64,000 bases of DNA. Origin: Endomicrobiia bacterium. GTDB lineage: Bacteria > Elusimicrobiota > Endomicrobiia > DTEH01. How positions within the stretch are numbered: position 1 is the stretch's first letter; each line of letters starts with the position of its first letter. A model generated the notes under the pieces. The model did not search any database. It had not been told where the DNA came from and saw nothing but the letters and a program-made list of their open reading frames with translations. The translations under genes were made by a program, and so were the position numbers. This document shows, one piece after another, positions 18,160 to 31,732 of this stretch. The DNA lies in the NCBI GenBank assembly GCA_025060535.1, contig JANXCA010000001.1, positions 7,730 to 71,729 of the forward strand. The letters run 5' to 3'.

Positions 18160-18435
18160 TTAAAACGCTTCAGAAATTTTATCTATCAACTTTTTGATTT
18201 TTTGTTTCACAATTTCTGTTTTAGATTGTAGATTTAGATAATCTTTATAGAAATTTTGAAGTTTTTTGTTTTCTTCTTTTAAAAGTTTTATATCACTATT
18301 CAAACGAGTATTCTCTGCTTTAAGAAATTCAATCTGTTTTATAAATTCCTTTAATTTTATCTCTAATAATGAAATTTGGTTTTCTAAATTTTCTAATCTA
18401 CTTAACAAATTGTGATAGCCTTTTATATCATTCAT
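18160..18435 (-). CDS. Small coiled-coil protein (ZapB/DUF904-like?), translationally coupled to the last hydrogenase-operon gene
   Basis: 91 aa, heptad-rich. Its ATG overlaps the upstream TAA stop by 1 nt (TAATG at 18437-18433). Confidence 0.3.
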   Translation of the reverse strand: MNDIKGYHNLLSRLENLENQISLLEIKLKEFIKQIEFLKAENTRLNSDIKLLKEENKKLQNFYKDYLNLQSKTEIVKQKIKKLIDKISEAF

Positions 18436-19106
18436 TATTTACTCTTTAATAAATATCCATATTCATCAAATAAAAATATTCTTCTTCTACATTTAGGACA
18501 TAAAATTTCATATAAATTTTCTCTTTGATAAAACTGAAAAAATTTTTTTTCTTTAAAAGGAAAATTCAATTTTTCATTTATTACCTGTAGTAAGTTTATA
18601 TTTCCAAAAGATTTATGACCAAGCTTTTGTATTATGTAAAGAAAGTGAGATTTTGTAGAAATAACACTTCTGCAATAAGAACATAAAATAAGTTCATGTT
18701 TTATCTCTTCTGATTTTAACGTTTCCCTATTAGTAGTAGCAAGTTCAAAATCTTTTGACATAACTACACCTGGTATTTTTTCATTTCTAGTAGTACAGTT
18801 TCTTGCACACTGAGCACAGAAAATACATTCATCATAAAACCATACTAAGTATCTTACACCAGAAACTATTTCAACAGAACCTTGAGATGTAAGTTCAGTT
18901 TTCAGTTCATCTTTAAGTTTAATCGCTCCCGTAGGGCATACCTCTACACAAGCTCCACAACCAATACACCCTTCCTGTGAGGGATCTGGCCTACCACGAA
19001 AACTCTCAGGTGGAATATGAGGTTCAAAGGGATATTTAGTAGTAGCAGGACCTTTAATCAAAGCTTTAATGGCTTCTTTTATTTCTCTTAATTTGGGATA
19101 TTTCAT
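18435..19106 (-). CDS. NuoI/MbhN-like 2x[4Fe-4S] ferredoxin subunit of the membrane-bound hydrogenase, with extra C-terminal CxxC...CxxC tail
   Basis: CIGCGACVEVCP and CIFCAQCARNC cluster motifs. C-terminal ~70 aa carries CSYCRSV...CPKCRRR (zinc-ribbon-like). Confidence 0.7.
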   Translation of the reverse strand: MKYPKLREIKEAIKALIKGPATTKYPFEPHIPPESFRGRPDPSQEGCIGCGACVEVCPTGAIKLKDELKTELTSQGSVEIVSGVRYLVWFYDECIFCAQCARNCTTRNEKIPGVVMSKDFELATTNRETLKSEEIKHELILCSYCRSVISTKSHFLYIIQKLGHKSFGNINLLQVINEKLNFPFKEKKFFQFYQRENLYEILCPKCRRRIFLFDEYGYLLKSK

Positions 19107-19441
19107 TTTATTCTTTCTTTATAATTTCTGTACTCATCACATACAGATTGCTGACACATTTTTACACCGGATTTATAAGCTGCTTTTGCTAAAGCATGAG
19201 ATGATACAGGTGACGTCAAAAATACAAAAATAATTATTAATAAGGCTTTTAAACCTATAATTGTAAAACCATAGTAGAAAAATACTCCAAAAAATATGCC
19301 ACAAGTTCCTAAGGTTACACATTTAGTAGATGCTTGTAACCTAGTATATACATCAGGAAATCTTACCAAACCCAAGCATCCTATTAAATCTGCTATTATT
19401 CCAATTGTTATAAAAAATAATCCTATAATTTCATTCATCAA
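19103..19441 (-). CDS. Mrp/Mnh antiporter subunit G-like (MbhC-like)
   Basis: 112 aa, 3 TM, MnhG/PhaG-like. Position and order within an mrpABCDEFG-type array. Confidence 0.65.
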   Translation of the reverse strand: MMNEIIGLFFITIGIIADLIGCLGLVRFPDVYTRLQASTKCVTLGTCGIFFGVFFYYGFTIIGLKALLIIIFVFLTSPVSSHALAKAAYKSGVKMCQQSVCDEYRNYKERIK

Positions 19442-19766
19442 ATTTTTTCCCCTCCAGGTATTTTGCTAAAGCTAAATTCCCTATAAATGATTGTAATGCC
19501 CAAGCTATTGCTACATCTATAAAAAATGCTGCTTTTGTAAAAACTGTAATAATTCCACATATACCTACTACTATAAGTCCCAAAATATCTGTAGCTACAG
19601 CTCGGTCTGCAGGTGAAGGTCCAAGAAATATCCTATAAAGACACAAAATTATACTCAAAATCATAGGATTTACAAATCTTATAATTAAATCCATTTTTAT
19701 AACTAAATTAGATATTATAAAAACAGCTATTAAAACTAAACAAATGATATAATTTATTTTTTTCAT
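19431..19766 (-). CDS. Mrp/Mnh antiporter subunit F-like (MbhB-like)
   Basis: 111 aa small membrane protein at the position between MrpE-like and MrpG-like. Confidence 0.6.
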   Translation of the reverse strand: MKKINYIICLVLIAVFIISNLVIKMDLIIRFVNPMILSIILCLYRIFLGPSPADRAVATDILGLIVVGICGIITVFTKAAFFIDVAIAWALQSFIGNLALAKYLEGKKFDE

Positions 19767-19780
19767 ATCATGAAAATAAA

Positions 19781-20287
19781 CTACTTACACGTAATTTTCA
19801 TTAGAATTTTTTCAAATTTATGAGCTATTTTTTTAGTAACAGCTTCCACGTCTACGTCTCTTACATATATCCAATGCACATAAATATATCCATTCTCTTT
19901 ATCTATATCAACACTCAAAGTACCTGGTGTCAATGTTATTGAATTTGCCAAAATTGTTAAAAATGCATCTGATTTTATACTAGTTTTAACTTTAACTATT
20001 CCGGGTTTTATTGGCATATTAGGTGATAAAATTCTATATGCTACATCTATATTGGCTTTTATTACTTCATAAAGGAAAATAATAATATAATATAAAAACC
20101 ATAAATACCTTTGTGGTTTTTTAAATGTCCACTCATTTTGAATATTAATATCTCCAAATAATAATATAAGTATAACACTACAAATAATACCGAATATTAC
20201 ATTATAAATTTCAAATCCAGACAAAATTATCCATACCAAAAAAACTAAACATATAAGAAAAATTTTCCTATACACTCTTATTTTCAT
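19781..20287 (-). CDS. Mrp/Mnh antiporter subunit E-like (MbhA-like)
   Basis: 168 aa with N-terminal TM pair; operon position. Confidence 0.55.
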   Translation of the reverse strand: MKIRVYRKIFLICLVFLVWIILSGFEIYNVIFGIICSVILILLFGDINIQNEWTFKKPQRYLWFLYYIIIFLYEVIKANIDVAYRILSPNMPIKPGIVKVKTSIKSDAFLTILANSITLTPGTLSVDIDKENGYIYVHWIYVRDVDVEAVTKKIAHKFEKILMKITCK

Positions 20288-21774
20288 TTTAAGATAAACT
20301 TAATATATAAATTTTCAGTGATAAATTTTATTACTCCATCAAATACTATATGTTTTATATTAGGATATAAAATTATTCCTGAAACAAAACACAAAATCGC
20401 TAATGTTAACATAGAAAACTGCATAAAAAAAGGAACTTCTTTTAAAAGTTTTGGACCTGTATTATATTTTTGTTCGGTATAAAAAGCATATTTTAGAACT
20501 TTTAAAAAACTAGCTAAAGTTAAAACACTTACTAAAGCCGCAATCAAAGCTAATAAGATATCTCTTTTTTCTAAACAAGCTATTATTATAATTAATTTTG
20601 ACCAAAAACCGTTAAAAGGAGGAATTCCTGCAATAGAAAAACTTCCTATTGTTGCAGAAAATGTAGTAATTGGCATTATTCTGTTTACATTATGATACTC
20701 CTTTAAGTTTCTAGTTCCAAAATTATACTCTAAAGCTCCACTTGTTAAAAATAGCAAAGATTTAAATAATGAATGATTAAATAAATGGAAAATACCACCC
20801 AAAATACCCATAGGAGTTGCAAGTCCAATTCCTAAAAAAATATATCCAACTTGACTAATAGAATGATATGCAAGAAGCCTTTTGTAATCCCACTGATATA
20901 AAGCAAGTATCACTCCAACAACCATAGATAAAGTTCCCAGATAACAAATCATCTTTAAGATTTTCTCATCTATAGGAAATACATTAAAGAATAACCTTAC
21001 TATCAAGTATACACCAAGTGTTTTAATAAGAACTCCAGAAAGCATTGCAGAAATTGGTGCCGGAGCTGAAGGATGTGCATCTGGTAACCACCAATGAAAA
21101 GGAACTATTGCTGCTTTAATAACAAAACCAATCATAAATATAAACATTATTACTCTAATAATAAGTTTGTCTTCAGATAATATCAAAATAGAAGCAATAT
21201 CTGCTAAGTTCAATGTAGATGTATAAGCATATATTAAAACTATACCTAATAAAATTAAACCTGTAGAGATAGACCCTAACACCATATATTTAAAGGATGC
21301 TTCTAATTCTTCCTTTTGAGTACCAAAAGCAACGAGTCCATATGAAGCAATAGTTGCTATTTCTAAAAACACAAATATATTGAATATATCTCCACTTATT
21401 ATAACACCATTCATGCCAGCAAGCATTAATTCAAACAAAGAGTAAAACCCCCACTTCTCTGTATATTTTTCAATATATGACACAGAATATATACCTACTA
21501 AAAATGCAACTAAGTTTACTGTAAACAACATAAAAACACTAACAGGATCGGCTACAAGAGCAACTCCATATGGAATTTTCCATCCCCCTACTTCATATAC
21601 AAAAATATTATTGTTTAATGTGTTAATTTTATAAATCCATATAATACATAAAATTAAAACTACAAAATTTATAAGATTTACAAAAACCTCAGAAAATAAC
21701 TTTAAAAATCTTCCAACCATAGTATTAATAAAAGCAGCAAATAACGGTAGAACAACAAAAAGTGGTAAAGTCAT
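20284..21774 (-). CDS. MrpD/NuoN-like proton/sodium-translocating antiporter subunit
   Basis: 496 aa, ~14 TM, NuoL/M/N family signatures (WLPDAH..AP). Confidence 0.85.
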   Translation of the reverse strand: MTLPLFVVLPLFAAFINTMVGRFLKLFSEVFVNLINFVVLILCIIWIYKINTLNNNIFVYEVGGWKIPYGVALVADPVSVFMLFTVNLVAFLVGIYSVSYIEKYTEKWGFYSLFELMLAGMNGVIISGDIFNIFVFLEIATIASYGLVAFGTQKEELEASFKYMVLGSISTGLILLGIVLIYAYTSTLNLADIASILILSEDKLIIRVIMFIFMIGFVIKAAIVPFHWWLPDAHPSAPAPISAMLSGVLIKTLGVYLIVRLFFNVFPIDEKILKMICYLGTLSMVVGVILALYQWDYKRLLAYHSISQVGYIFLGIGLATPMGILGGIFHLFNHSLFKSLLFLTSGALEYNFGTRNLKEYHNVNRIMPITTFSATIGSFSIAGIPPFNGFWSKLIIIIACLEKRDILLALIAALVSVLTLASFLKVLKYAFYTEQKYNTGPKLLKEVPFFMQFSMLTLAILCFVSGIILYPNIKHIVFDGVIKFITENLYIKFILK

Positions 21775-21782
21775 AAAATTAT

Positions 21783-22154
21783 TTAACCTCTTAACTCTTT
21801 TATTTTTGTAATATCAAATGTTTTATACCTATGATATAATCTTAACGCAACAGCAACCATCAAAATTGTTATAGAAAGTCCTATCACAATAGAGGTTAAC
21901 ACCAAAGCTTGCGGAAGAGGATCCACTATATTATCCGCAGGACGATTTTTTAAAAATACAGGGAAACTACCGCCTTTTTTATAGCCTACTATTATAAAAA
22001 ACAAGTTTAGAGCATTATCCATTATTATAAATGATATTATAATCTTTAGTAAGTTTTTTTTCATTACTAACCCATATAAACCTACAAAACATAAACATAA
22101 ACATAAAATATATACTAACACAAAATTCCACCCTCCTTTTTTATTTTTCTTCAT
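21783..22154 (-). CDS. MrpC/NuoK-like subunit
   Basis: 123 aa, 3 TM, NuoK-like. Confidence 0.65.
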   Translation of the reverse strand: MKKNKKGGWNFVLVYILCLCLCFVGLYGLVMKKNLLKIIISFIIMDNALNLFFIIVGYKKGGSFPVFLKNRPADNIVDPLPQALVLTSIVIGLSITILMVAVALRLYHRYKTFDITKIKELRG

Positions 22155-22605
22155 CTTGTGGTGAAAATAATATCAAGCATAAGAAAGCACTTAACATTCC
22201 AAAACCCACTTTTATCATAATTGCTATATTAGCTGGTAATATCATACCTCCGGATAACAAACTAAATGCTTTTCCCTGTCCCAAAAAATCCTTAAAAAAC
22301 ACTCCCACAGAAAACCCCATTATAGATATAGAAAGAAACATTAACGCTCCTGTAGTTTCCAAAGATTCCGATAAAATTTTATTAATTTTTTTAACTACAA
22401 AATCTTTACCGTACGCAAGTATTATATGAATAAAAGATAAAGCAACTATAACTCCACCAGCAAACCCTCCCCCCGGACTTAAATGACCAAAAAGAGTAAT
22501 ATACCAACCGTAAAGCATAATAAATAAAACTGTCCATCTGGTGACTGTTTTTACTATCAAACTCATCCCAGATGATGTAAAATTCTTATTATTGGTTTCT
22601 TTCAT
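22141..22605 (-). CDS. MrpB-like subunit
   Basis: 154 aa, 4 TM; MnhB domain position. Confidence 0.55.
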   Translation of the reverse strand: MKETNNKNFTSSGMSLIVKTVTRWTVLFIMLYGWYITLFGHLSPGGGFAGGVIVALSFIHIILAYGKDFVVKKINKILSESLETTGALMFLSISIMGFSVGVFFKDFLGQGKAFSLLSGGMILPANIAIMIKVGFGMLSAFLCLILFSPQDEEK

Positions 22606-23125
22606 TATTTAACTTTTTACCAACTTTTCTTAAAATTAAAATCACCGATAAAATTGCAGTAAATAAAACTGTTGCTTCTCCTAAAGTATCGTAAGCTCTA
22701 TAATTTAAAATTATAGCAGCAACTATATCCGTAGCACCTGTATCACTAATAGTATTTTTTATGTAATAATCTGAAACTCTATATTTAGGATTTCCAAAAT
22801 CAGGTAAAAATCTTAAAGAAAATCCTAATATAACCAAAAATATAAGGATACTCATCAGAATTGGTATTCGCAACAAAATTTTCTTTTTTTCATATACATC
22901 TTCATCTCTTACTATTGTAGCTCTTATTAGTATTACTAAGGATAATATTTCCACCACAAACTGAACAATAGCAACATCAGGAGCTTGAAGCAACAAAAAC
23001 AATAATGTTAAAATTAACCCTACCGCTCCTAAACTAATAACTGAAGACAATAAATCTCTTATTTCGATAGCAACTATAGCTGCTATAATCATTAATAATA
23101 TAAGTAAAGAAATAATTATTTCCAT
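22589..23125 (-). CDS. MrpA C-terminal-domain/MrpB-like small membrane subunit (MbhD/E-like)
   Basis: 178 aa, very hydrophobic, sits between MrpA-like and MrpB-like. Confidence 0.45.
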   Translation of the reverse strand: MEIIISLLILLMIIAAIVAIEIRDLLSSVISLGAVGLILTLLFLLLQAPDVAIVQFVVEILSLVILIRATIVRDEDVYEKKKILLRIPILMSILIFLVILGFSLRFLPDFGNPKYRVSDYYIKNTISDTGATDIVAAIILNYRAYDTLGEATVLFTAILSVILILRKVGKKLNNERNQ

Positions 23126-23137: not shown

Positions 23138-25021
23138 TCACAACAAAAATATAAAAAATAAAATTAAAATGCTTATAAATATCCAAGACAAATAACTATG
23201 TAAGTTACCATTATGTAAAAAAGATAATTTTTCAGCTACTTTAAATATATTTTTTTTGCTAAAGATATACAAATCCACTATATCTAACTTAAGGACCTTA
23301 CTAATACCATTTACTAAAAAAGATAAACTCCACAAAAACCAATTATAAATATCAAATAATTTATTTTCTGCTAAATAATAAAGTACTGAAAAAGGAAACA
23401 TTTGCTTTATTGTTAAATAAAAATCTGTAGATGGAAAATAAGATTCTCCTAACTTCTCTTCTTCTCCAAGAAGGTATACATTTACTTTTCTAGGTTTATC
23501 TACAAATAATATATATATAATCAAACCAATAAAAACTCCCAAAATTAATAAATATGTAGCTGCTTGAGCATTCCATTCTCCAATCAATAAAATTTTTTCA
23601 AAACCCAGCATTGGTTTAACAATTCTACTAATAGGTATCTCAAAAGAAAAAATTCCTAAAATTATACATAAAATAGCTAATATACCCATTGGTAATACAT
23701 TAAATATTTTTTCTTTCTCCTTTAATACTCTATTAGTATGTTCATCTTCGTTTTTTGAAAGAAATACTGAATATAACACCTTTACAAAAGAAGCGAATGT
23801 AAGTGCACTACCAAACATAATACTTATTAAAACTAATACACCTACAAAAAAGTATTTTTTTGAAACTTCTATAACTGACTGATATATAAGCCACTTAGAA
23901 AAAAAACCATTAAATGGAGGAATTCCTGAAATAGATAAAGCAGCAATTAAGGTAAAAACAAAACATAAAGGATAATATTTTGCTAAACCCTTAGCTTTAG
24001 TAAGTTCTACATCTTCAGTATATTTTTCAACAAAATCAGAAGACAAAAAAAGTAAAGTTTTATAGATAGTATTATTTATCATATGAAAAACCCCACCTAC
24101 AATACCTAAAACCGATCCTGTCGAAATCCCCACAACCATATATCCAATTTGTGAAATAGCATGATATGAAAGAAGTTTTTTTAAATTATGTTGTATCAAA
24201 GCCATAAATACTGCAATTAAAACAGTTAAACCCCCTAATATCATTAGAAAAGGATGATAACTTAATATAAATATATCTTTTGTAATCCTTACTAACAAAT
24301 ATATACCTAAAATTTTATCTAAAGCTCCAATTAAAAAACCTCCTAAAGCAGAGGGTATCTTCTCTGCAGTTTCAGGAATCCAAGTATGAAAAGGTATAGC
24401 TCCAATTTTACCTAAAGCACCGATTGTTAAAAGACTAAATATCAAAGGATATTTATTAACATCTAAATTATATGAAGTAAAATATAATCCATACATATTA
24501 GAAGCTTCCTTAATTAAAAGAATAATGCCTATTAGTAGGGAAAAATCACTTATACTTATTATAGTTATTGCTTTTGTCGCTGTATTAAACTCATCATTTG
24601 CAGTCACAAATCTTATTAATAAGTAAACAAGTATTCCCAAAATTTCCCAGGAAATTAAAAACAAAATTAAATTTTTGGATAAAAGTGATAAATGTGTGAA
24701 TGCTAAAATAAAAAAAATAAATGAAAAATATATATTTTCTTTTACTGTATCTAAAATTTTTTTTGAAAAAATTACTACAATTAATCCAAAGAAAGAAGCT
24801 AATACAGAACTTATTAAAGAAGTAAAATCACTTATTAGAACTATATCTATTTTTAAGAATTTTAACCAATCAATCATATATTCTTTTCTATTCACTAGCA
24901 AAAGGAGGTTTAACACAAAACAACAAAAAGAAAAAAATAAACTTATGAAATATAATTTTTTTCTAAAAATTAAACAAATCAATCCAGCTAATAAAGGAAT
25001 TAGTATTATTAAATAACCCAT
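23138..25021 (-). CDS. MrpA/NuoL-like antiporter subunit (long form)
   Basis: 627 aa, NuoL family core plus C-terminal extension TMs. Confidence 0.8.
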   Translation of the reverse strand: MGYLIILIPLLAGLICLIFRKKLYFISLFFSFCCFVLNLLLLVNRKEYMIDWLKFLKIDIVLISDFTSLISSVLASFFGLIVVIFSKKILDTVKENIYFSFIFFILAFTHLSLLSKNLILFLISWEILGILVYLLIRFVTANDEFNTATKAITIISISDFSLLIGIILLIKEASNMYGLYFTSYNLDVNKYPLIFSLLTIGALGKIGAIPFHTWIPETAEKIPSALGGFLIGALDKILGIYLLVRITKDIFILSYHPFLMILGGLTVLIAVFMALIQHNLKKLLSYHAISQIGYMVVGISTGSVLGIVGGVFHMINNTIYKTLLFLSSDFVEKYTEDVELTKAKGLAKYYPLCFVFTLIAALSISGIPPFNGFFSKWLIYQSVIEVSKKYFFVGVLVLISIMFGSALTFASFVKVLYSVFLSKNEDEHTNRVLKEKEKIFNVLPMGILAILCIILGIFSFEIPISRIVKPMLGFEKILLIGEWNAQAATYLLILGVFIGLIIYILFVDKPRKVNVYLLGEEEKLGESYFPSTDFYLTIKQMFPFSVLYYLAENKLFDIYNWFLWSLSFLVNGISKVLKLDIVDLYIFSKKNIFKVAEKLSFLHNGNLHSYLSWIFISILILFFIFLL

Positions 25022-26411: not shown

Positions 26412-27591
26412 AGAGTTTCCTTATTTTCTCTGTTTTCTGTTGAGAAAGTTTAACTAAATCGTCCCAACATAAAATTTCTTGATTTGTTTTTAAATCTACT
26501 ACAGTAGCTCTTTCTGTACAACAATAACAAGGATCCACAGCTGCCAAAGTTATTGCTGCATCTGCAATTGTTTGGCCCACAGCTGCTACTTTATTTGAAG
26601 CAATGTTCATATAAGAAGGAGCACGAATTTTATGTCTTATAGGTCTGTTAGAACCATCTGACCGAATATAGTGAAAAACTTCACCACGAGGAGCTTCATG
26701 TCTTCCTATACCTTCACCAGGTGGTATAAAATCAATCTTAGTTTCTATATTCCCCTCAGGTTCCTTTTTCAATTTTTCTAAACATTGTTTTATTATTTTA
26801 ATTGACTCATACATTTCAAGAATTCTAACCACTGCTTTATCAAAAACATCTCCATTATATAAGACAGGAACATTAAATTCAACCTCTCCATAAGCAGCAT
26901 AAGGATCATCTCTTCTTACATCTATGTCTATACCACTTGCACGAGCTGTAGGTCCTACTACACAATACTTAATAGCATCTTCTTTTGTCAGAACACCAAC
27001 TCCTTTAAGTCGTGCATGAATTACTGGATCATCCATAATAGCACCTCTAAACATATCAATCACTGACAACAACCCATCACACATTTTTTCTATCTGGGGG
27101 ACTAAATCATTCGGAATATCTCTTCTTACTCCACCAACTTTAAACATAGCATAATGTTGACGATTACCAGAGATAACTTCTAATATATCACACACATTCT
27201 CCCTATGCTTCCAGGACCACATCCATATTGTATTATATCCTATAAAATGTCCAGCCAATCCTAACCATAAAAAATGAGAATGTAATCTTTCAAGTTCTCC
27301 TATTATACTTCTTATGTATTTAGCACGTACAGGTACATCTATCCCAGCTAAATCCTCCACTGCATTTACATAAGCAAAAGGATGACTTGTAGAACATATA
27401 CCACATATTCTCTCAACTACAAATGGGATTTGATCGTAATGCTTAAGGGTAGAAATTTGTTCAATACCACGATGATTATATCCTATTTCTATTTCTATAT
27501 CTACAACTTTTTCCTCTTCTACATATAATTTAAAAAATTCTGGCTCTTCTTGTAAAGGATGATATGGCCCTATTGGAATAATTTTTTTCAT
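26404..27591 (-). CDS. Group 4 [NiFe] hydrogenase large subunit (NuoD/MbhL-like) with intact Ni-Fe ligands
   Basis: N-terminal RICGICSTSH (RxCGxCxxxH) and C-terminal DPCYCCTER (DPCxxCxxR) read directly; 395 aa. Confidence 0.9.
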   Translation of the reverse strand: MKKIIPIGPYHPLQEEPEFFKLYVEEEKVVDIEIEIGYNHRGIEQISTLKHYDQIPFVVERICGICSTSHPFAYVNAVEDLAGIDVPVRAKYIRSIIGELERLHSHFLWLGLAGHFIGYNTIWMWSWKHRENVCDILEVISGNRQHYAMFKVGGVRRDIPNDLVPQIEKMCDGLLSVIDMFRGAIMDDPVIHARLKGVGVLTKEDAIKYCVVGPTARASGIDIDVRRDDPYAAYGEVEFNVPVLYNGDVFDKAVVRILEMYESIKIIKQCLEKLKKEPEGNIETKIDFIPPGEGIGRHEAPRGEVFHYIRSDGSNRPIRHKIRAPSYMNIASNKVAAVGQTIADAAITLAAVDPCYCCTERATVVDLKTNQEILCWDDLVKLSQQKTEKIRKLYE

Positions 27592-28017
27592 TTATTTTTC
27601 CCTTAATGGATAGCTATTATCTGGCCAATCGTCAGATAATAACAAATGTTTCAAATTAGGATGCCCTATAAAGTTTATACCTATCATCTCCCATATTTCC
27701 CTTTCTATCCATTCAGCTGCAGAAAAAATTGAACTTAAAGAATATATTTCTGGTTTTTCTTTACTAAGCTTTACCCTTAGTGAAACTATCTCTCCTGTTT
27801 TATCATAACTAAAATGATAAATAATCTCAAAATATTTTTCACAATCCATGCCAGTAGCAGTTATAAATCTAAATCCTAACTCATTAAATAAAAGACTTGC
27901 AACTTTTTTTATACTTTCCGGCTTAATTTCAATATAATATCTTCTGTCATTTTTTTTAAATAACTCAATCGTATCTTCACTTATTCTTTGGGTTATTTTA
28001 TTTATTATCTCACTCAT
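27592..28017 (-). CDS. NuoC-like hydrogenase subunit (MbhK-like)
   Basis: 141 aa; NuoC/HycE N-terminal-domain family; immediately precedes the large subunit. Confidence 0.7.
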   Translation of the reverse strand: MSEIINKITQRISEDTIELFKKNDRRYYIEIKPESIKKVASLLFNELGFRFITATGMDCEKYFEIIYHFSYDKTGEIVSLRVKLSKEKPEIYSLSSIFSAAEWIEREIWEMIGINFIGHPNLKHLLLSDDWPDNSYPLREK

Positions 28018-28025
28018 ATAATAAC

Positions 28026-28445
28026 TTATGTTTTTAGAGATTTTATCAATTTTACTATACCATCAATTATAGCTTCTGGCTTGGGAGGACAACCAGGTAC
28101 ATACGCAGAAACAGGAACAATTTTATCAACATCACAAGGACTATTAAAAGAATCCTTAAAAACTCCCCTTCCACAAGCACAAGTACCAATTGCTACTACA
28201 AAACATGGTTTAGGAGCTTGTTCATATAAATATTTCAATTTTGTATAATTTTTATAATTAGGCACACCTGTCACCAACAAAACATCTGCGTGTCTAATGG
28301 AACCTACTAGTTGAATACCAAATCTTTCTAAGTCATATCTTGGAGTCAAAGCATCTAAAATTTCAATATCACAGTTATTACATGGAGAAAGAGGTAAATG
28401 AAAAACCCACAATGATTTTAATAAAGATTTTTTTATTAATCCCAT
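28026..28445 (-). CDS. [NiFe] hydrogenase small subunit, NuoB/MbhJ-like
   Basis: Cys ligands SPCNNCDIE, GTCACGRG, PGCPPKPE. Confidence 0.85.
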   Translation of the reverse strand: MGLIKKSLLKSLWVFHLPLSPCNNCDIEILDALTPRYDLERFGIQLVGSIRHADVLLVTGVPNYKNYTKLKYLYEQAPKPCFVVAIGTCACGRGVFKDSFNSPCDVDKIVPVSAYVPGCPPKPEAIIDGIVKLIKSLKT

Positions 28446-28452
28446 ATTTATT

Positions 28453-29364
28453 TTATAAAATAAATAATAAAATAACTGATAATAAACTTAAAGGGAATAT
28501 TATAAACCAAAAAAATTTCATTACTTGAATTATTTTTAATCTCGGATTTATATTTTTAAAAATAATTATAAAAAATAAAATCATTAAGTACTTTATTACA
28601 AAAGAAACGACTCCTCCATCAAAAAAATATAATCCTACTAAAAAAGCTGGAAAAAGAGACATAAAAACTTGTTTTGTTAATTTTATTAATCCTAAAAGAA
28701 TTCCAGAAAATTCCATCAAAATGCCTCCAGCAATTTCAGTCTCAGCTTCAGGAGCATCAAATGGTACTATCCCACTTTTAGCATATAAACAAATAAATAA
28801 TACAAAAAATGACAAAATTGAAGGCAAAGAAAGAGTATTCTTTTGCATTATTTCTATCAACTTTAAGCTACCAGAGTTTAAAATTGGAACTAATGTTGCT
28901 GTTATGAGTGGTAATTCATAAGATAATAACATTTTTATTTCTCTAGAAACTCCCAATGATACAATTACATTGCCAGATGAAGCTCCCCCTAGTATTAACA
29001 TAACAGAGGGAATTAACAAAAGATAAACAAAAACAGTAATATCTCCGATAAATCCTTTTTTAAAAATTATAGCTGTCCATAAAATAGAAGATGCTAATAC
29101 AACTGATGCAAAACTTAAAAATGGAGATAAGAAAAACAGTAAGTTTGCATTTTTAGGAACGGTTACTTCTTTTAAAAGTAGTTTAAAAAAATCATATAAA
29201 GGTTGAAGCAAAGGTGGACCTTGACGATATTGTAGTCTTGCTGTTATCTTTCTATCTAAAAAACTCACAAAAATAGAAAGAATAAAACTAAACAAAAATC
29301 CAGGAAATAAAAGATAAATAAACAAAGAATTTATAACATTCATAATTACTTCTCTAAAATCCAC
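28453..29364 (-). CDS. NuoH-like membrane subunit (MbhM-like)
   Basis: 303 aa, 8 TM, GPPLLQPLYDFFKL motif. Confidence 0.8.
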   Translation of the reverse strand: MDFREVIMNVINSLFIYLLFPGFLFSFILSIFVSFLDRKITARLQYRQGPPLLQPLYDFFKLLLKEVTVPKNANLLFFLSPFLSFASVVLASSILWTAIIFKKGFIGDITVFVYLLLIPSVMLILGGASSGNVIVSLGVSREIKMLLSYELPLITATLVPILNSGSLKLIEIMQKNTLSLPSILSFFVLFICLYAKSGIVPFDAPEAETEIAGGILMEFSGILLGLIKLTKQVFMSLFPAFLVGLYFFDGGVVSFVIKYLMILFFIIIFKNINPRLKIIQVMKFFWFIIFPLSLLSVILLFIL

Positions 29365-29870
29365 TTCATTACACGAACAACTAAGTTCTTATTTATTTCA
29401 TATATATTTTCTTTTTCATTCGGTTGCACATCTCTATAAGAAATAGCTCCTTCCGGACAAGTCACACTGCATAAAGGAGGATTCTCATCACTTGCACGGT
29501 CTAAACAAAAATCACATTGTGAACTTTTATAATCTAAAACATCTTTGTATATAGTACCAAATGGACAAGCTACTAAACAACTTTTACAAGATGTGCATCT
29601 AAATAAACTTTTATGTAAAATACCATCTTTATCTTTAAATAAGGCCTCATTTGGACAACTATTTATACAAAACGCATCTTCACATCTTCTACAAATAAAA
29701 TACTGTAAGACCTTTGAAAAAAACTTCTCAAATCCTTTGTTTAAAGATTTTTCTTTTGGTTTATCTTTATAAACATGCGAATGTTGATAAAAATAAGAAC
29801 ATTCTGCTTTACATTCTTTACAACTATAACATTTTTCTATGTCTATAAATATTCTTTTCATTTTATTCAA
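29346..29870 (-). CDS. HycB/HyfA/CooF-like ferredoxin with four [4Fe-4S] motifs
   Basis: CysxxCysxxCysxxxCys(Pro) motifs x4 (CYSCKECKAEC, CRRCEDAFCINSCP, CTSCKSCLVACP, CDFC...CSVTCP). Confidence 0.75.
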   Translation of the reverse strand: MNKMKRIFIDIEKCYSCKECKAECSYFYQHSHVYKDKPKEKSLNKGFEKFFSKVLQYFICRRCEDAFCINSCPNEALFKDKDGILHKSLFRCTSCKSCLVACPFGTIYKDVLDYKSSQCDFCLDRASDENPPLCSVTCPEGAISYRDVQPNEKENIYEINKNLVVRVMKWILEK

Positions 29871-30684
29871 ATGGTTCTGGTATGTCTTTTAGTTGCTCCC
29901 AACTAAACACAGGCCCATCTTTACAGATAAAATAACTTCCAATCTGACAATGACCACATTTGCCTAAACCACAACTCATATTTCGTTCCATTGAAAGATA
30001 AATCTGATTAGGTTTAAATTTCATATCAATCAATTTTAATGTAGTAAATTTCATCATTATCGGTGGTCCACATACAACAGCAACCGAATTTTCTACATCA
30101 ATTTTTATCTTATCTAACAAACAAGTAACCACCCCTACAGTTTCATCCCACTCTCCCGGCTGACATCTATCTACAGATCTTAAAATTTCCAATCCTTTAA
30201 TTTTATACCATTCTGGAAACAGATATTTATATACTATATCAGATGGAGTTCTTGCTCCGTAACATAAAACTATTTTTTTAAAATCTGAAATTTTTTCAAT
30301 TAAAGTAAAAAGTAAAGATCTCAATGGCGCAAGTCCTACTCCTCCACCAACTATTAACACTTCCTTTCCCACAAAACTTTCAACAGGATAACCTTTCCCA
30401 TAAGGACCGCGAATGCCGACTATTTCTCCCTCTTTCATAGAATGCAAAAATTCCGTCATTCTCCCCACACGCATAATTGTCACATCCATTGTGTCTGTTT
30501 TATATGGAGAAGAAGAAGGTGTAAACGGCGCTTCTCCAACACCATATACTGTAAGTTCTATAAACTGCCCAGTTTTAAAAGAAAACTTATCGCTATCTAA
30601 TGGTTTAAGAGTAAATGTTTTAATATTTGGAGTTTCTTCTATAATCTTTATAATTTTAAAATTTTGAGGTTTATATATACTCAT
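29863..30684 (-). CDS. FAD/NAD(P)-binding oxidoreductase with C-terminal 2Fe-2S (PyrK/AsrB/sulfhydrogenase gamma HydG-like)
   Basis: FNR-like fold (GIRGPYGKGYP, LIVGGGVGLAPLRSL) and C-terminal CGLGKCGHCQ...C cluster. Confidence 0.8.
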   Translation of the reverse strand: MSIYKPQNFKIIKIIEETPNIKTFTLKPLDSDKFSFKTGQFIELTVYGVGEAPFTPSSSPYKTDTMDVTIMRVGRMTEFLHSMKEGEIVGIRGPYGKGYPVESFVGKEVLIVGGGVGLAPLRSLLFTLIEKISDFKKIVLCYGARTPSDIVYKYLFPEWYKIKGLEILRSVDRCQPGEWDETVGVVTCLLDKIKIDVENSVAVVCGPPIMMKFTTLKLIDMKFKPNQIYLSMERNMSCGLGKCGHCQIGSYFICKDGPVFSWEQLKDIPEPFE

Positions 30685-30694
30685 TTTTAAAAAA

Positions 30695-31732
30695 TTAAAC
30701 CAAAACTTCTTCTCCTTTTGCTAAAACTAAACTTCTTATAACTTTTCTCATATCTATTTTCCCTGGACAAACTTCTATACATCTACCACAACCACTACAG
30801 GCATACATATTAAAATTTTCATATCTATATACAAACTTACATTGATATCTGTTTCTAAAACGTTGATATTTATATTTTCTAGGATTTGCTCCACCCGCAA
30901 CTCTGGAATATCCAGTAAAATGGCACACATCCCATACTTTATCTCTGTGTTGATCTTTATAATCCTTTGAAGCTTCCCTAATTAAAAAGCAATAACAACT
31001 TGGACATATAAAATTACAACCTCCACATTGAACACATTTTTCTGATTCTTTTTCCCAAATGCTTTCTAATTCATATGTATTTTTTAATGTAAGATAATGC
31101 TTATTTTTTTTATCTTCTTTGATATATTCTTTATTAAACTCATATATTTTCCTTTCAGAAACTACCCTTACACTATTTCTTTTTAAATAATCATTTTTTG
31201 TTGGTTCTTCAAACTCATTAAAATTTTCTTTTAAAAATTCCTCACCCTTTTGAGTAAATGCCTCCAAAATCAAATTATTTTCATCTACAAAAGAAATATT
31301 TAAGTCACTTCCGTCCCCTTTTTCTACATAAGGTCTACCACCAACTATACTACAAAAACAAGACAACTGAGGATTTATACAATCAGAAGATATAATTAAA
31401 GTATTTTCTTTATAAATTTTATATTTCTCATCTACATATTCTTCTCCTATAAATATATTGTCTAAAATTCTTATTGCTTTGAGGTCACAAAATTTTACAT
31501 CTAACAATAAAATCTTTTCGACAGAAGTAAAACTGGTTAGTATGTCTTTTACTTTAAAGAAAAATAATTTAGGAGGGTGTATACAACGAATGTTTAATAA
31601 TGCTAAATTTTGTATTTCTTGTGGATTAATTATTTTTTTATAGATTTGATCAAAATTATGATATATTATAATAAAATTATTCAAATTTTTAAAAACCGAT
31701 AAAAGATCGGAATAATTTATTATTTTCTCCAT
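30695..31732 (-). CDS. AsrA / sulfhydrogenase beta (HydB)-like iron-sulfur protein; first gene of the hydrogenase operon
   Basis: 345 aa; CVQCGGCNFICPSCYC and CSGCGRCIEVCP motifs. Confidence 0.7.
   Translation of the reverse strand: MEKIINYSDLLSVFKNLNNFIIIYHNFDQIYKKIINPQEIQNLALLNIRCIHPPKLFFFKVKDILTSFTSVEKILLLDVKFCDLKAIRILDNIFIGEEYVDEKYKIYKENTLIISSDCINPQLSCFCSIVGGRPYVEKGDGSDLNISFVDENNLILEAFTQKGEEFLKENFNEFEEPTKNDYLKRNSVRVVSERKIYEFNKEYIKEDKKNKHYLTLKNTYELESIWEKESEKCVQCGGCNFICPSCYCFLIREASKDYKDQHRDKVWDVCHFTGYSRVAGGANPRKYKYQRFRNRYQCKFVYRYENFNMYACSGCGRCIEVCPGKIDMRKVIRSLVLAKGEEVLV

What the first reader, a model, noticed from the sequence alone, without database searches (positions are those of the whole stretch)
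18435..31732. 17-gene operon: Mbh-type group-4 [NiFe] hydrogenase + complete Mrp-like antiporter set + extra pump subunit + soluble AsrAB/HydBG-like NAD(P)H module
Uninterrupted co-directional genes, mostly with 1-20 nt overlaps, in this order: AsrA/HydB-like, AsrB/HydG-like, HycB-like 4x[4Fe-4S] Fd, NuoH-like, NuoB-like small subunit, NuoC-like, large subunit, NuoL/M/N-like (461 aa), then MrpA-, MrpB-, MrpB-, MrpC-, MrpD-, MrpE-, MrpF-, MrpG-like in canonical mrp order, then a NuoI-like Fd. The large subunit has intact RICGICSTSH and DPCYCCTER Ni-Fe ligand motifs, which argues for a genuine H2-converting enzyme. There are three antiporter-like subunits, as in complex I. The order differs from archaeal mbhA-N. 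The combination with a sulfhydrogenase-like beta/gamma (FAD/NAD(P)-binding) pair suggests an NAD(P)H- or Fd-linked, ion-translocating hydrogenase or electron-confurcating arrangement. I cannot tell from sequence whether this exact architecture has been characterised.
Basis: partly seen in the sequence, partly recalled or inferred. Interest (0 to 1): 0.75.

Follow-up and report, generated by a model that had tools for sequence, protein, structure and literature searches.

The report
Hun-type membrane hydrogenase operon, 17-gene variant
This is a real 17-gene operon for a membrane-bound, ion-pumping nickel-iron hydrogenase of the already described but never biochemically tested "Hun" type, here with one extra pump subunit and a redox-sensing (Rex) control site in front of it.

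Summary

The architecture is not new. It matches the 16-gene hun operon ("Hun supercomplex") of Glass et al. (bioRxiv 10.1101/536078), down to the diagnostic large-subunit motifs CGIC and CYCC. HydDB-based papers call family members "group 4g, Mrp-linked"; Méheust et al. call it "Mbh-Mrp-oxidoreductase type" in Elusimicrobia. No biochemical study turned up in the paper library.

In 80 related loci from many nominal phyla the gene order is nearly invariant.

Three results go beyond those papers' text:
1. The 17th gene is a HyfD/NuoL-type antiporter-like subunit, present in about 12 loci. It always co-occurs with a 26-residue insertion in the lateral-helix region of HunH.
2. HunA and HunB are close homologues of the NADPH-oxidising beta and gamma subunits of Pyrococcus sulfhydrogenase I, with invariant FAD, NAD(P) and [2Fe-2S] motifs.
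3. A perfect Rex operator precedes hunA. Such sites occur in 27 of 62 loci (0.3 expected), and a rex gene sits next to hunA in nine.

The most likely function is reversible, ion-coupled NAD(P)H:H+ oxidoreduction. The electron donor and the direction remain untested.

The parts
31742..31759 (.). Rex operator: perfect 18-bp palindrome TTGTGAA-AAAT-TTCACAA, 10 nt upstream of the hunA ATG
   Evidence: TGTGA-N6-TCACA occurs twice in 64 kb (0.06 expected). Equivalent sites lie upstream of hunA in 27/62 loci (0.3 expected). The consensus is quoted in PMC2883068, PMC5317091 and PMC6391272.
31777..31805 (-). Promoter-like site TTGACA-17-TATCTT in the 76-nt gap upstream of hunA
   Evidence: On its own this is not significant in such AT-rich DNA (109 sites found, 94 expected).
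30695..31732 (-). hunA: multi-cluster Fe-S protein, homologue of sulfhydrogenase I beta / AsrA (345 aa)
   Evidence: Fer4_22. ShyB, HydB and AsrA models all score below their cutoffs. PDB 9nez_B 5.7e-39. 15 invariant Cys in 63/63 homologues.
29863..30684 (-). hunB: FAD / NAD(P) / [2Fe-2S] protein, homologue of sulfhydrogenase I gamma / AsrB (273 aa)
   Evidence: FAD_binding_6, NAD_binding_1 and DHODB_Fe-S_bind. PDB 9nez_C 1.3e-50. In 66 homologues the key residues of EAPFTPSS and GGGVGxAPLRS are invariant or nearly so, and Cys238/243/246/254 are invariant.
29346..29870 (-). hunC: HycB/HydN/CooF-type ferredoxin with 4 x [4Fe-4S] (174 aa)
   Evidence: Fer4_11. HydN and related models. Blastp to E. 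coli HycB 1e-11. 16 Cys.
28453..29364 (-). hunD: NuoH/MbhM/HycD-like membrane subunit (303 aa)
   Evidence: PF00146 at 1.9e-57.
28026..28445 (-). hunE: NuoB/MbhJ/HycG-like small subunit with the proximal [4Fe-4S] (139 aa)
   Evidence: PF01058. Cys22/25/89/119 invariant in 78/78.
27592..28017 (-). hunF: NuoC/MbhK-like subunit (141 aa)
   Evidence: PF00329.
26404..27591 (-). hunG: [NiFe] large subunit (395 aa). L1 is RICGICSTSH, L2 is DPCYCCTER, followed by a 34-aa C-terminal extension
   Evidence: PF00346 and PF00374. 6cfw_L 3e-91, HycE 5.5e-74. Cys63/66/355/357/358 invariant in 81/81. 62-88% identical homologues in 80 loci.
25026..26411 (-). Extra antiporter-like subunit of HyfD/NuoL type (461 aa, no lateral helix). 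This is the 17th gene, absent from the canonical 16-gene hun operon
   Evidence: PF00361. NuoL and HyfD models. E. coli NuoL 5e-71 and HyfD 8e-68, with a residue pattern identical to HyfD at 9/9 functional positions checked. Present in 12 of about 72 loci.
23138..25021 (-). hunH: MrpA N-terminal / MbsH'-like antiporter-like subunit with a lateral-helix region (627 aa). Carries a 26-aa insertion at residues 564-589
   Evidence: PF00361. 6u8y_X aligned over residues 5-544. TM15 at 484-511, TM16 at 606-627. The insertion is found only where the extra subunit is present.
22589..23125 (-). hunI: MrpA C-terminal domain = MbhD+MbhE (178 aa)
   Evidence: PF13244 and PF20501. 6z16_A residues 655-811.
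22141..22605 (-). hunJ: MrpB/MbhF (154 aa)
   Evidence: PF04039. 6cfw_F 8.6e-20.
21783..22154 (-). hunK: MrpC/NuoK-like (123 aa)
   Evidence: PF00420.
20284..21774 (-). hunL: MrpD/MbhH/MbsH-like antiporter-like subunit (496 aa)
   Evidence: PF00361. 7qru_D 5.5e-78 and 6cfw_H 1.7e-76.
19781..20287 (-). hunM: MrpE (168 aa)
   Evidence: PF01899 at 3e-47.
19431..19766 (-). hunN: MrpF (111 aa)
   Evidence: PF04066.
19103..19441 (-). hunO: MrpG (112 aa)
   Evidence: PF03334.
18435..19106 (-). hunP: HycF/HyfH/NuoI-type 2 x [4Fe-4S] subunit with an extra invariant Cys4 site in its C-terminal extension (223 aa)
   Evidence: Formate hydrogenlyase Fe-S subunit model. 12 Cys invariant in 56/56. The extra CxxC...CxxC aligns with E. 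coli HycF and HyfH.

Best explanation
Identity (near certain): a 17-gene variant of the hun operon. [quoted passage not shown]

Mechanism (inferred):
- HunB (FAD, [2Fe-2S]) exchanges a hydride with NAD(P)H.
- Electrons then pass through the clusters of HunA, the four clusters of HunC, the two of HunP and the proximal cluster of HunE to the [NiFe] site of HunG, where 2H+ and H2 interconvert.
- The redox step at the HunG/HunE/HunD interface is coupled to H+/Na+ movement through a full Mrp-like arm with three antiporter-like pumps (the HyfD-like subunit, HunH and HunL). The lengthened lateral helix of HunH clamps these together.

In effect this is an 'NAD(P)H hydrogenlyase': a formate-hydrogenlyase/MBH chassis in which a sulfhydrogenase beta-gamma module replaces formate dehydrogenase or free ferredoxin as the entry point.

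Regulation: transcription is held off by Rex when NADH/NAD+ is low and released when NADH accumulates. The physiological job is therefore most likely to dispose of excess reducing equivalents as H2. In this organism those equivalents are fed by glycolysis, 2-oxoacid:ferredoxin oxidoreductase and Rnf.

Energetics: at low H2 pressure the reaction would conserve a little energy. At higher H2 pressure it would be driven by the ion gradient.
For: Shown:
- Gene content, order and cofactor motifs.
- Identity with Hun: same order and the same CGIC/CYCC motifs as described in 10.1101/536078. HunG is 72% identical to L012, an ODP Site 1244 bin, and 67% identical to L041 (Ca. Saelkia), which PMC8542988 calls group 4g Mrp-linked.
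- HunA and HunB match 9nez_B and 9nez_C, the beta and gamma subunits of sulfhydrogenase I, at 6e-39 and 1e-50. PMC13582414 describes these subunits as involved in NADPH oxidation.
- The NAD(P) and FAD motifs of HunB are invariant or nearly so in 66 homologues from many nominal phyla. Such conservation is unexpected if the nucleotide site were unused.
- hunAB is syntenic with the rest of the cluster in more than 60 loci.
- HunC and HunP are of HycB and HycF type, the connector used in formate hydrogenlyase.
- All three antiporter-like subunits keep the key Glu and Lys residues.
- The HunH lateral-helix region is 26 residues longer exactly where the extra subunit exists. This fits the rule in PMC8165549 that helix length tracks the number of pumps.
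- Rex operator: perfect in the window, at least 12/14 matches in 27/62 loci against 0.3 expected. A rex gene lies adjacent to hunA in nine loci. The second operator in the window sits before a class V aminotransferase plus phosphoglycerate dehydrogenase pair, the same Rex target validated in C. bescii.
- rnfCDGEAB, 2-oxoacid:ferredoxin oxidoreductase subunits, GAPDH and PGK are in the same window.

Inferred from standard potentials (NAD(P)H -320 mV, H+/H2 -414 mV): NAD(P)H to H2 costs +18 kJ/mol at 1 atm H2. It becomes about -5 to -14 kJ/mol near 10 Pa H2.
Against: - No enzyme of this family has been assayed. The donor, the direction, the coupling ion and the stoichiometry are all inference.
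- Glass et al. proposed ferredoxin, not NAD(P)H, as the donor to HunABC.
- Rex also controls the ferredoxin-dependent Ech hydrogenase in C. bescii, so Rex control does not discriminate between donors.
- If HunB prefers NADPH (a conserved R/K145-T146, as in NADPH enzymes; this is a weak inference), the link to an NADH sensor is indirect.
- Three pumps seem too many for the small free energy of NAD(P)H to H2.
- No hyp genes, hycI-type protease or rex gene lie in the 64-kb window, although HunG has a C-terminal extension that needs cleavage.
- Co-transcription was not measured.
Confidence: 0.5

Rival explanations
1. Ferredoxin-driven MBH-like proton respiration (the model of Glass et al.). Reduced ferredoxin donates to HunABC or HunP, H2 is evolved and the Mrp arm exports Na+/H+. 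HunAB would be only an Fe-S/flavin relay, and NAD(P)H would not be a substrate.
For: - This is the published proposal for Hun. HydDB also predicts group 4g to be ferredoxin-coupled.
- The large subunit is closest to ferredoxin-dependent P. furiosus MbhL.
- The organism makes reduced ferredoxin, since 2-oxoacid:ferredoxin oxidoreductase subunits are in the window.
- Ferredoxin to H2 gives more free energy for a multi-pump arm.
- Rex-controlled, ferredoxin-dependent Ech is a precedent.
Against: - The FNR-type NAD(P)-binding motif of HunB and its homology to the NADPH-binding SHI gamma subunit are invariant across the family.
- MBH, Ech and Coo need no such module to accept ferredoxin.
- From my own knowledge, Asr in Salmonella is NADH-linked, so the analogy used for the ferredoxin proposal is itself weak.
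- Rnf in the same genome already oxidises ferredoxin.
Confidence: 0.25
2. A branched, dual-substrate enzyme. Either ferredoxin and NAD(P)H are confurcated onto protons, or the complex acts as an ion-coupled ferredoxin:NAD(P)+ oxidoreductase with H2 as an overflow valve (Mbx/Rnf-like).
For: - The long Fe-S wiring (roughly 11-12 predicted clusters) offers several possible entry points.
- PMC13582414 proposes bifurcation or confurcation for group-4b clusters that carry SHI beta/gamma homologues plus an Fdh-like protein.
Against: - No bifurcating-type flavoprotein (NuoF/HydB-like, HdrA, NfnB/GltD-like or EtfAB) is encoded in the operon.
- By established knowledge of NfnAB, HunB belongs to the PyrK/NfnA/FNR class, which is the non-bifurcating flavin.
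- None of these 80 loci has room for an Fdh-like third branch between hunB and hunC; the largest gap is 873 nt.
Confidence: 0.13
3. The physiological direction is H2 uptake. H2 reduces NAD(P)+, and with input from the ion gradient possibly ferredoxin as well, to supply reductant for CO2 fixation or biosynthesis. This would parallel SHI in Pyrococcus or Ech in methanogens.
For: - Méheust et al. find this hydrogenase type in Elusimicrobia lineages predicted to be Rnf-dependent acetogens.
- From my own knowledge, SHI is thought to make NADPH from H2.
- The enzyme is likely reversible.
Against: - A Rex repressor releases its targets when NADH is high, which fits NADH-consuming rather than NADH-producing enzymes.
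- Neighbouring genes in the window indicate a fermentative metabolism; no Wood-Ljungdahl genes were seen.
- H2 to NAD(P)+ is endergonic at environmental H2 levels.
Confidence: 0.1
4. Not a working hydrogenase: either a decaying cluster or an Mbs/Ehr-type non-hydrogenase paralogue.
For: No maturation genes (hyp, hycI) are in the window.
Against: - All 17 ORFs are intact.
- All metal ligands are invariant.
- Flanking synteny is shared, and encoded proteins are 55-89% identical, in the closest Endomicrobiia MAG loci.
- The MbsL match is much weaker than the MbhL match.
Confidence: 0.02

Closest known systems
Hun supercomplex (hunA-P), Glass et al., bioRxiv 10.1101/536078; HydDB group 4g
   Same: - Same gene order: AsrA-like, AsrB-like, Fd, NuoH, NuoB, NuoC, large subunit, MrpA-G-like, NuoI-like.
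- Same CGIC/CYCC large-subunit motifs.
- Same kind of hosts; Elusimicrobia are listed among them.
   Different: - The window has a 17th gene, a HyfD/NuoL-type antiporter-like subunit between hunG and hunH, together with a matching 26-aa lengthening of the HunH lateral-helix region.
- The paper's text does not mention that variant, a Rex operator or NAD(P)H.
'Mbh-Mrp-oxidoreductase type' group-4 hydrogenases of Elusimicrobia (Méheust et al., 10.1101/765248) and the Saganbacteria RX5A cluster with asrA, asrB and cooF (PMC6349859)
   Same: A membrane hydrogenase, Mrp-like subunits and an AsrAB/CooF-like oxidoreductase module. Both papers state that the function is unknown.
   Different: The Saganbacteria cluster also has a molybdopterin oxidoreductase. 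None is present in the window or in the 80 loci examined.
Pyrococcus furiosus MBH (group 4d; PDB 6CFW)
   Same: - Best structural homologue for the large subunit (3e-91).
- MbhH, MbhD/E and MbhF all have counterparts here.
- Couples H2 evolution to an Mrp-derived arm.
   Different: - MBH has one antiporter-like subunit; this complex has three.
- The gene order is reversed (the Mrp-like genes come first in mbhA-N).
- MBH has no HunABC module.
- MBH takes electrons directly from ferredoxin.
Pyrococcus furiosus MBS (PDB 6U8Y)
   Same: HunH resembles MbsH' (618 aa, with a lateral helix) and HunL resembles MbsH. The canonical 16-gene Hun therefore has the same two-pump arm as MBS.
   Different: MBS has lost its [NiFe] ligands and reduces polysulfide. 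HunG keeps all four Cys.
E. coli formate hydrogenlyases: Hyc (FHL-1; PDB 7Z0S) and Hyf (FHL-2)
   Same: - HycB/HyfA-type connector ferredoxin.
- HycF/HyfH-type subunit with the extra CxxC...CPxC.
- HycE-like L2 motif with an Arg cleavage site and a C-terminal extension.
- Hyf also has three antiporter-like subunits, and the extra subunit here is HyfD-like.
   Different: - The electron-input module is a formate dehydrogenase in FHL, but an SHI beta-gamma-like NAD(P)H module here.
- FHL lacks MrpE/F/G and MrpB.
Pyrococcus furiosus soluble sulfhydrogenase I (group 3b; PDB 9NEZ)
   Same: HunA and HunB are homologues of its beta and gamma subunits (Fe-S clusters; FAD, [2Fe-2S] and the NADPH site).
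   Different: The catalytic partners are group-3 alpha and delta subunits in a soluble enzyme. Here the partner is a membrane-bound group-4 module.
Group-4b clusters with SHI-beta/gamma homologues plus a non-catalytic Fdh-like protein (PMC13582414)
   Same: A membrane-bound group-4 hydrogenase is genetically linked to SHI beta-gamma homologues, and an NADP(H) link is proposed in silico.
   Different: A different large-subunit clade (4b rather than 4g). A third, Fdh-like branch underlies their bifurcation proposal and is absent here.
Respiratory complex I (Nuo)
   Same: - NuoB/C/D/H/I/K/L-type core.
- Three antiporter-like pumps tied together by a lateral helix.
- A nicotinamide-nucleotide input module, if the model is right.
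   Different: - The input module is not NuoEFG.
- The acceptor is H+ at a [NiFe] site rather than quinone.
- MrpE/F/G/B subunits are present.

Membership tests
Hun supercomplex (Glass et al.) | Gene order hunA-P: AsrA-like, AsrB-like, Fd, NuoH, NuoB, NuoC, large subunit, MrpA-G-like, NuoI-like | tested here: met
   against the description. One extra gene is inserted after hunG.
Hun supercomplex (Glass et al.) | HunG L1 motif CGIC and the unusual L2 motif CYCC | tested here: met
   RICGICSTSH and DPCYCCTER are present. DPCYCCTER occurs in 79/81 family members.
Hun supercomplex (Glass et al.) | Sequence relatedness of HunG to described members | tested here: met
   72% identity to L012 (ODP Site 1244 bin) and 67% to L041 (Ca. 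Saelkia, 'group 4g Mrp-linked' in PMC8542988).
HydDB [NiFe] group 4g | Assignment by the HydDB classifier or by phylogeny of the large subunit | not testable with these tools
   HydDB is not available here. Published HydDB calls for family members are 4g. PMC13582414 notes that 4g is polyphyletic.
Group 4 energy-converting [NiFe] hydrogenases | Four Cys ligands of the NiFe site in the L1 and L2 motifs | tested here: met
   Cys63, 66, 355 and 358 are invariant in 81/81.
Group 4 energy-converting [NiFe] hydrogenases | NuoB-type small subunit with a single proximal [4Fe-4S]; NuoH-type and antiporter-like membrane subunits | tested here: met
   Cys22/25/89/119 are invariant. PF00146 and three copies of PF00361.
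Group 4 energy-converting [NiFe] hydrogenases | Maturation system: Hyp proteins and a HycI-type endopeptidase acting on the C-terminal extension | tested here: inconclusive
   The 34-aa extension after Arg361 is present. No hycI, hypA or hypB is detectable in the 64-kb window, although hycI follows hunP in about 40 related loci. The rest of the genome was not seen.
Group 4 energy-converting [NiFe] hydrogenases | H2 evolution or uptake activity coupled to ion translocation | not testable with these tools
   Needs biochemistry.
MBH / group 4d (Mrp-Mbh of Thermococcales) | 14-subunit mbhA-N organisation with the Mrp-like genes first, a single antiporter-like subunit (MbhH) and direct ferredoxin input | tested here: not met
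   The order is hydrogenase genes first, then Mrp genes. There are three PF00361 subunits and an added HunABC module.
Formate hydrogenlyase (group 4a, Hyc/Hyf) | Formate dehydrogenase H partner and a fused NuoC-NuoD large subunit | tested here: not met
   No molybdopterin protein is in the operon or the window. NuoC and the large subunit are separate genes.
Sulfhydrogenase / group 3b (SHI, SHII) | Alpha and delta subunits of group-3 type together with beta and gamma | tested here: not met
   Only beta and gamma homologues are present, and they score below the NCBIfam equivalog cutoffs (146 against 690; 216 against 600). The catalytic subunit is group-4 type.
Anaerobic sulfite reductase AsrABC | AsrC sirohaem subunit; AsrA and AsrB above the TIGR02910 and TIGR02911 cutoffs | tested here: not met
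   AsrA model 112.5 bits against a cutoff of 323; AsrB model 211.7 against 288.6. No AsrC-like ORF was found among the ORFs of at least 120 aa scanned.
Mrp (CPA3) antiporter module | MrpA (N- and C-terminal domains), B, C, D, E, F and G, in that order | tested here: met
   MrpA is split into HunH (N-terminal domain) and HunI (C-terminal domain).
Respiratory complex I | NuoEFG N-module; a quinone site in place of NiFe (ligand Cys lost) | tested here: not met
   No NuoE, NuoF or NuoG is in the operon, and the NiFe Cys are retained.
Rex regulon | Operator TTGTGAA-N4-TTCACAA in the promoter region | tested here: met
   A 14/14 match at 31742-31759, with enrichment across loci. Actual binding by Rex was not tested, and no rex gene is in the window.

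The most novel reading that the evidence does not exclude
Hun is a true NAD(P)H:proton oxidoreductase, a functional analogue of complex I. In it an unrelated NAD(P)H-dehydrogenase module (sulfhydrogenase beta-gamma type, not NuoEFG) was recruited independently onto a group-4 hydrogenase/Mrp chassis, with H+ as the terminal acceptor. In the 17-gene variant seen here it has grown to three pump modules held by an extended lateral helix. Under Rex control it lets fermenters in low-H2 habitats reoxidise NAD(P)H as H2 while exchanging energy with the ion gradient.
Probability: 0.4. Interest if true: 0.75.

Novelty: new member of a known kind. Interest (0 to 1): 0.4.

Why it matters
Hun-type clusters occur in MAGs labelled as many different phyla of anoxic sediments, groundwater and guts. 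These include Elusimicrobiota, Omnitrophota, Clostridia, Planctomycetota, Verrucomicrobiota, Desantisbacteria and Aerophobetes, and published work adds Atribacteria. Yet no member has been assayed.

If the input really is NAD(P)H, this would be a widespread route for making H2 from nicotinamide cofactors with energy coupling. That would be relevant to H2 budgets and syntrophy in the subsurface. It would also be an independent evolutionary experiment in building a complex-I-like NAD(P)H-driven pump.

For this window specifically the value is modest. It adds an Endomicrobiia example. It documents a 17-subunit variant in which the extra pump and the lateral-helix length co-vary. It also supplies a testable regulatory link to Rex.

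Tried and rejected
- Exact look-up of the window's large subunit in the assembly collection found nothing, so the source genome stays unidentified. Synteny places it in Endomicrobiia.
- The promoter and terminator scan is uninformative in 27% GC DNA: 109 promoter-like sites against 94 expected, and 3 terminators against 3.6 expected.
- A tblastn search for hycI, hycH, hypA, hypB and rex in the window found nothing credible.
- The Rfam scan found only a tRNA-Leu.
- The SHI structure paper and Ravcheev et al. 2012 are not held. NADPH-contact residues could therefore not be mapped, and the Rex consensus is cited second-hand.
- A literature search for later work on Hun returned only the original preprint.
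- I did not build a reference phylogeny of groups 4a-4i.

Considered and rejected:
- An AsrABC sulfite reductase (no AsrC; scores below cutoffs).
- An Mbs, Ehr or Nuo paralogue (NiFe Cys intact).
- A separate soluble partner for hunAB (synteny in more than 60 loci; 10-nt gap and 8-nt overlap at the junctions).
- Flavin-based confurcation (no bifurcating flavoprotein).
- Recent horizontal insertion (GC content is uniform; the flanks are syntenic in related MAGs).

Full report

Yes. Searches list 17 ORFs on the minus strand from 31732 down to 18435. Their junctions run from a 19-nt overlap to a 14-nt gap. The only plus-strand ORFs inside the region are short ones embedded in membrane-protein genes. 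GC content is uniform at 0.25-0.30, as in the rest of the window.

Domain searches confirm the list:
- an AsrA/HydB-like Fe-S protein (Fer4_22);
- an AsrB/HydG-like FAD/NAD/[2Fe-2S] protein;
- a HycB/HydN-type ferredoxin with 16 Cys;
- NuoH-, NuoB- and NuoC-like subunits;
- a large subunit with both Complex1_49kDa and NiFeSe_Hases domains;
- three proteins with the antiporter-like PF00361 domain (461, 627 and 496 aa);
- MbhD+MbhE, MnhB, NuoK/MrpC, MrpE, MrpF and MrpG;
- a HycF/NuoI-like 2x[4Fe-4S] protein.

One label needs correcting. The 178-aa protein is the C-terminal domain of MrpA (6z16_A residues 655-811, = MbhD+MbhE), not MrpB. The 154-aa protein is MrpB/MbhF.

**2. Is it a hydrogenase?**

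The large subunit's best solved relative is P. furiosus MbhL (6cfw_L, 3e-91). E. coli HycE follows at 5.5e-74, T. thermophilus Nqo4 at 1.7e-66, and the non-hydrogenase MbsL is far behind at 7.6e-49.

RICGICSTSH lies at residues 61-70 and DPCYCCTER at 353-361. I extracted 81 family members from related loci. In all of them Cys63, 66, 355, 357 and 358 are invariant, and every sequence has a 32-47-residue extension after the motif's Arg. That is the arrangement processed by a HycI-type protease in E. coli HycE.

The small subunit keeps four invariant Cys for the proximal cluster. The NuoI-like subunit keeps eight Cys for two clusters, plus four further invariant Cys. These four align with the CxxC...CPxC of E. 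coli HycF and HyfH.

**3. What it is called**

The closest homologues of the large subunit are 85-88% identical and come from Endomicrobia/Endomicrobiia MAGs. Homologues at 62-76% identity come from MAGs labelled Elusimicrobiota, Omnitrophota, Clostridia, Planctomycetota, Verrucomicrobiota, Kiritimatiellae, Desantisbacteria, Aerophobetes, Eisenbacteria, Chlamydiota, Fibrobacterota, Lentisphaerae and Alphaproteobacteria.

I mapped all 17 window proteins onto the 80 loci. The order AsrA-AsrB-Fd-NuoH-NuoB-NuoC-large subunit-MrpA...MrpG-NuoI holds in essentially every locus long enough to show it.

Four published descriptions cover this architecture:
- Glass et al. (bioRxiv 10.1101/536078) describe exactly this as a putative 16-subunit respiratory complex, 'Hun'. 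HunAB are AsrAB-like, and HunG carries CGIC and the unusual CYCC motif. HydDB classifies HunG as group 4g, although it is distant from other 4g sequences. They report it in Atribacteria, Firmicutes, Omnitrophica, Elusimicrobia and Bacteroidetes MAGs and in cultured Kosmotoga.
- Locus L041 is Ca. Saelkia tenebricola, whose hydrogenase PMC8542988 calls 'group 4g, Mrp-linked'.
- Méheust et al. (10.1101/765248) report 'Mbh-Mrp-oxidoreductase type' hydrogenases of unknown function in several Elusimicrobia lineages, including some of lineage I.
- Matheus Carnevali et al. (PMC6349859) describe a Saganbacteria cluster with cooF, asrA and asrB whose closest relatives are in Omnitrophica.

The architecture is therefore known at the genomic level. 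I found no biochemical study of it in the held library.

**4. The 17th gene**

Canonical hun has hunG directly followed by hunH; the tblastn-hit spacing is under about 330 nt in most loci, with a few exceptions such as L017 and L021. Twelve of about 72 loci, including the five nearest Endomicrobiia loci, have an extra gene of about 1.4 kb there.

The window's copy (461 aa) is a NuoL/HyfD-type 14-TM core without a lateral helix. It matches E. coli NuoL at 5e-71 and HyfD at 8e-68. It has the same residue as HyfD at all nine functional positions I checked, including GluTM5, LysTM7, HisTM8 and LysTM12. HunH and HunL also keep the Glu and Lys set.
- HunL is an MrpD/MbhH/MbsH orthologue.
- HunH resembles MbsH' and the N-terminal domain of MrpA.

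So canonical Hun has a two-pump arm like MBS and Mrp, and the window's variant has three pumps like Hyf and complex I.

HunH is 624-654 aa (median 630) wherever the extra subunit is present, against a median of 604 aa elsewhere. The difference is a single 26-residue insertion at window residues 564-589. It lies in the roughly 94-residue segment between predicted TM15 (484-511) and TM16 (606-627), which aligns with the lateral helix HL of NuoL. Twenty-six helical residues span about 39 Å.

PMC8165549 states that HL length tracks the number of antiporter-like subunits it spans. I take this co-variation as good evidence that the extra subunit is a structural part of the complex.

L006 shows the same downstream flanking genes and has an 83%-identical HunG. 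It lacks the extra gene, so the subunit has been gained or lost within the lineage.

**5. The input module**

HunB matches the gamma subunit of P. furiosus sulfhydrogenase I (9nez_C, 1.3e-50), and HunA matches the beta subunit (9nez_B, 5.7e-39). PMC13582414 describes those subunits as involved in NADPH oxidation.

Both proteins score below the NCBIfam cutoffs for ShyB/C, HydB/G and AsrA/B, so they form their own subfamily. There is no AsrC gene and no group-3 hydrogenase gene in the window.

In 66 HunB homologues, the key residues of the FAD motif EAPFTPSS and the nucleotide motif GGGVGxAPLRS are invariant or nearly so, and the four [2Fe-2S] Cys are invariant. An (R/K)-T pair follows the second beta-strand of the NAD domain.

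Such conservation argues that a nicotinamide nucleotide is really bound. That is why I prefer NAD(P)H to the ferredoxin donor proposed by Glass et al. By analogy with formate hydrogenlyase, the HycB-like HunC would wire HunA to the HycF-like HunP.

No bifurcating-type flavoprotein is present, so I consider confurcation unlikely.

**6. Regulation (new here)**

Ten nucleotides upstream of the hunA ATG lies TTGTGAAAAATTTCACAA (31742-31759). This is a perfect match to the Rex operator, quoted as TTGTGAAW4TTCACAA in PMC2883068 and as TTGTGAANNNNTTCACAA (after Ravcheev 2012) in PMC5317091 and PMC6391272.

The core TGTGA-N6-TCACA occurs only twice in the 64-kb window, against 0.06 expected.

Within 150 nt upstream of hunA, 27 of 62 loci have a site with at least 12 of 14 matches, against 0.3 expected. 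Fourteen of these are perfect.

A gene with the Rex domain pair (Put_DNA-bind_N plus CoA_binding) sits immediately upstream of hunA in L012-L016, L019, L025, L047 and L057.

The window's second site (44375-44390) precedes a class V aminotransferase plus phosphoglycerate dehydrogenase pair. That is the same operon shown by EMSA to be a Rex target in C. bescii.

Rex releases its targets when NADH/NAD+ is high. This points to a role in disposing of reducing equivalents. There is a caveat: Rex also controls the ferredoxin-dependent Ech of C. bescii.

**7. Context**

The flanks are housekeeping genes:
- downstream of hunP: ZapB-like and ZapA-like genes, RarA, RNase Y and UvrB;
- upstream of hunA: DksA, an Orn/Lys/Arg decarboxylase and a saccharopine-dehydrogenase-like gene.

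These flanks are syntenic in Endomicrobiia MAGs.

The window also holds rnfCDGEAB (57422-62437), two 2-oxoacid:ferredoxin oxidoreductase subunits, GAPDH and PGK. A coherent picture follows. Sugars yield NADH and reduced ferredoxin. Rnf moves ferredoxin electrons to NAD+ while pumping ions. Hun reoxidises NAD(P)H to H2.

From standard potentials, NAD(P)H to H2 costs +18 kJ/mol at 1 atm H2 but becomes about -5 to -14 kJ/mol near 10 Pa. The enzyme may therefore conserve a little energy at low H2 and draw on the ion gradient at high H2. This is inference.

**8. Weak points**

- No hyp, hycI or rex gene is in the window, although hycI follows hunP in about 40 other loci.
- Transcription, donor, direction and coupling ion are all untested.
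- HydDB classification and a reference phylogeny could not be run here.

**9. Verdict**

The operon is a genuine and well-conserved member of a known but uncharacterised family. What is modestly new is the three-pump variant with its matching lateral-helix extension, and the conserved Rex control.

Noticed in passing
window 31742-31759: A perfect Rex operator palindrome lies 10 nt upstream of hunA. It is conserved upstream of hunA in 27/62 related loci, and a rex gene is adjacent to hunA in nine loci. The Hun paper's text does not mention it.
   Followed up: yes
window 44375-44390 (targets 43206-44348 and 41596-43188, minus strand): A second, identical Rex-type palindrome sits upstream of a class V aminotransferase plus D-3-phosphoglycerate dehydrogenase pair. 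This is the same gene pair that is a validated Rex target in Caldicellulosiruptor bescii.
   Followed up: partly
window 57422-63897, minus strand: A complete rnfCDGEAB operon (rnfB 57422-58249, A 58259-58846, E 58851-59522, G 59519-60208, D 60205-61137, C 61142-62437) lies directly downstream of two 2-oxoacid:ferredoxin oxidoreductase subunit genes (62460-63347 and 63385-63897).
   Followed up: partly
window 18160-18435 and 17745-18059, minus strand: The ATG of a ZapB-like coiled-coil gene overlaps the hunP stop codon by 1 nt (TAATG), so it may be co-transcribed with hun. A 104-aa gene with no Pfam match follows; its ZapA-like label is my reading of the sequence. Both are conserved downstream of hun in Endomicrobiia MAGs L001, L002, L004 and L006, but there with a gap of about 20 nt.
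   Followed up: partly
loci L010, L013, L019, L025-L028, L032-L034, L036-L039 and others (about 40 in all), just after hunP: A HycI-type maturation endopeptidase gene follows hunP in most non-Endomicrobiia loci, and hypA/hypB follow in some (L033, L038, L059, L080). In L070 my ORF extraction read hunP and the protease as one frame; this may be a fusion or an artefact. None of these genes is in the window or in L001-L006.
   Followed up: partly
L028 (about 1119-6590) and L077 (5613-12607): A short variant: hunA-G is followed directly by hunP and hycI, with no Mrp-like or antiporter-like genes. L028 has an additional 293-aa ORF between hunG and hunP. NuoH would be the only membrane subunit encoded there.
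   Followed up: no
L006 (contig CAZLOB010000065.1): An Elusimicrobia MAG with the same downstream flanking genes and an 83%-identical HunG. It lacks the HyfD-like gene and has a much more divergent HunH (39% identity). This suggests gain, loss or module exchange of the membrane arm within the lineage.
   Followed up: partly
L012 567-5714 (similar in L013, L019, L025): In Clostridia-type loci the genes upstream of rex-hun are FdhD, a MobA-like gene, a second AsrA-like ORF (349 aa) and a 689-aa ORF. The 689-aa ORF may be a molybdopterin or Fdh-like protein; I did not check it.
   Followed up: no
L017 11193-11810 and L021 3664-4281: A 205-aa ORF is inserted between hunG and hunH in two Omnitrophota loci. 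Its identity was not examined.
   Followed up: no
L031 and L038, upstream of hunA: L031 has a second AsrA/AsrB-like pair upstream. L038 has a distant [NiFe] large-subunit hit (21% identity) and a second HycI-like hit upstream, possibly a group-3b hydrogenase next to hun.
   Followed up: no
window 32241-36212: A likely polyamine cluster: an Orn/Lys/Arg decarboxylase (32241-33734), a 371-aa ORF with no Pfam hit at 1e-8 (33810-34925, 80-89% conserved in Endomicrobiia MAGs) and a saccharopine/carboxynorspermidine-dehydrogenase-like gene (34971-36212).
   Followed up: no
window 3311-3395, minus strand: tRNA-Leu(GAG), the only RNA gene that Rfam and ARAGORN detect in the window.
   Followed up: yes
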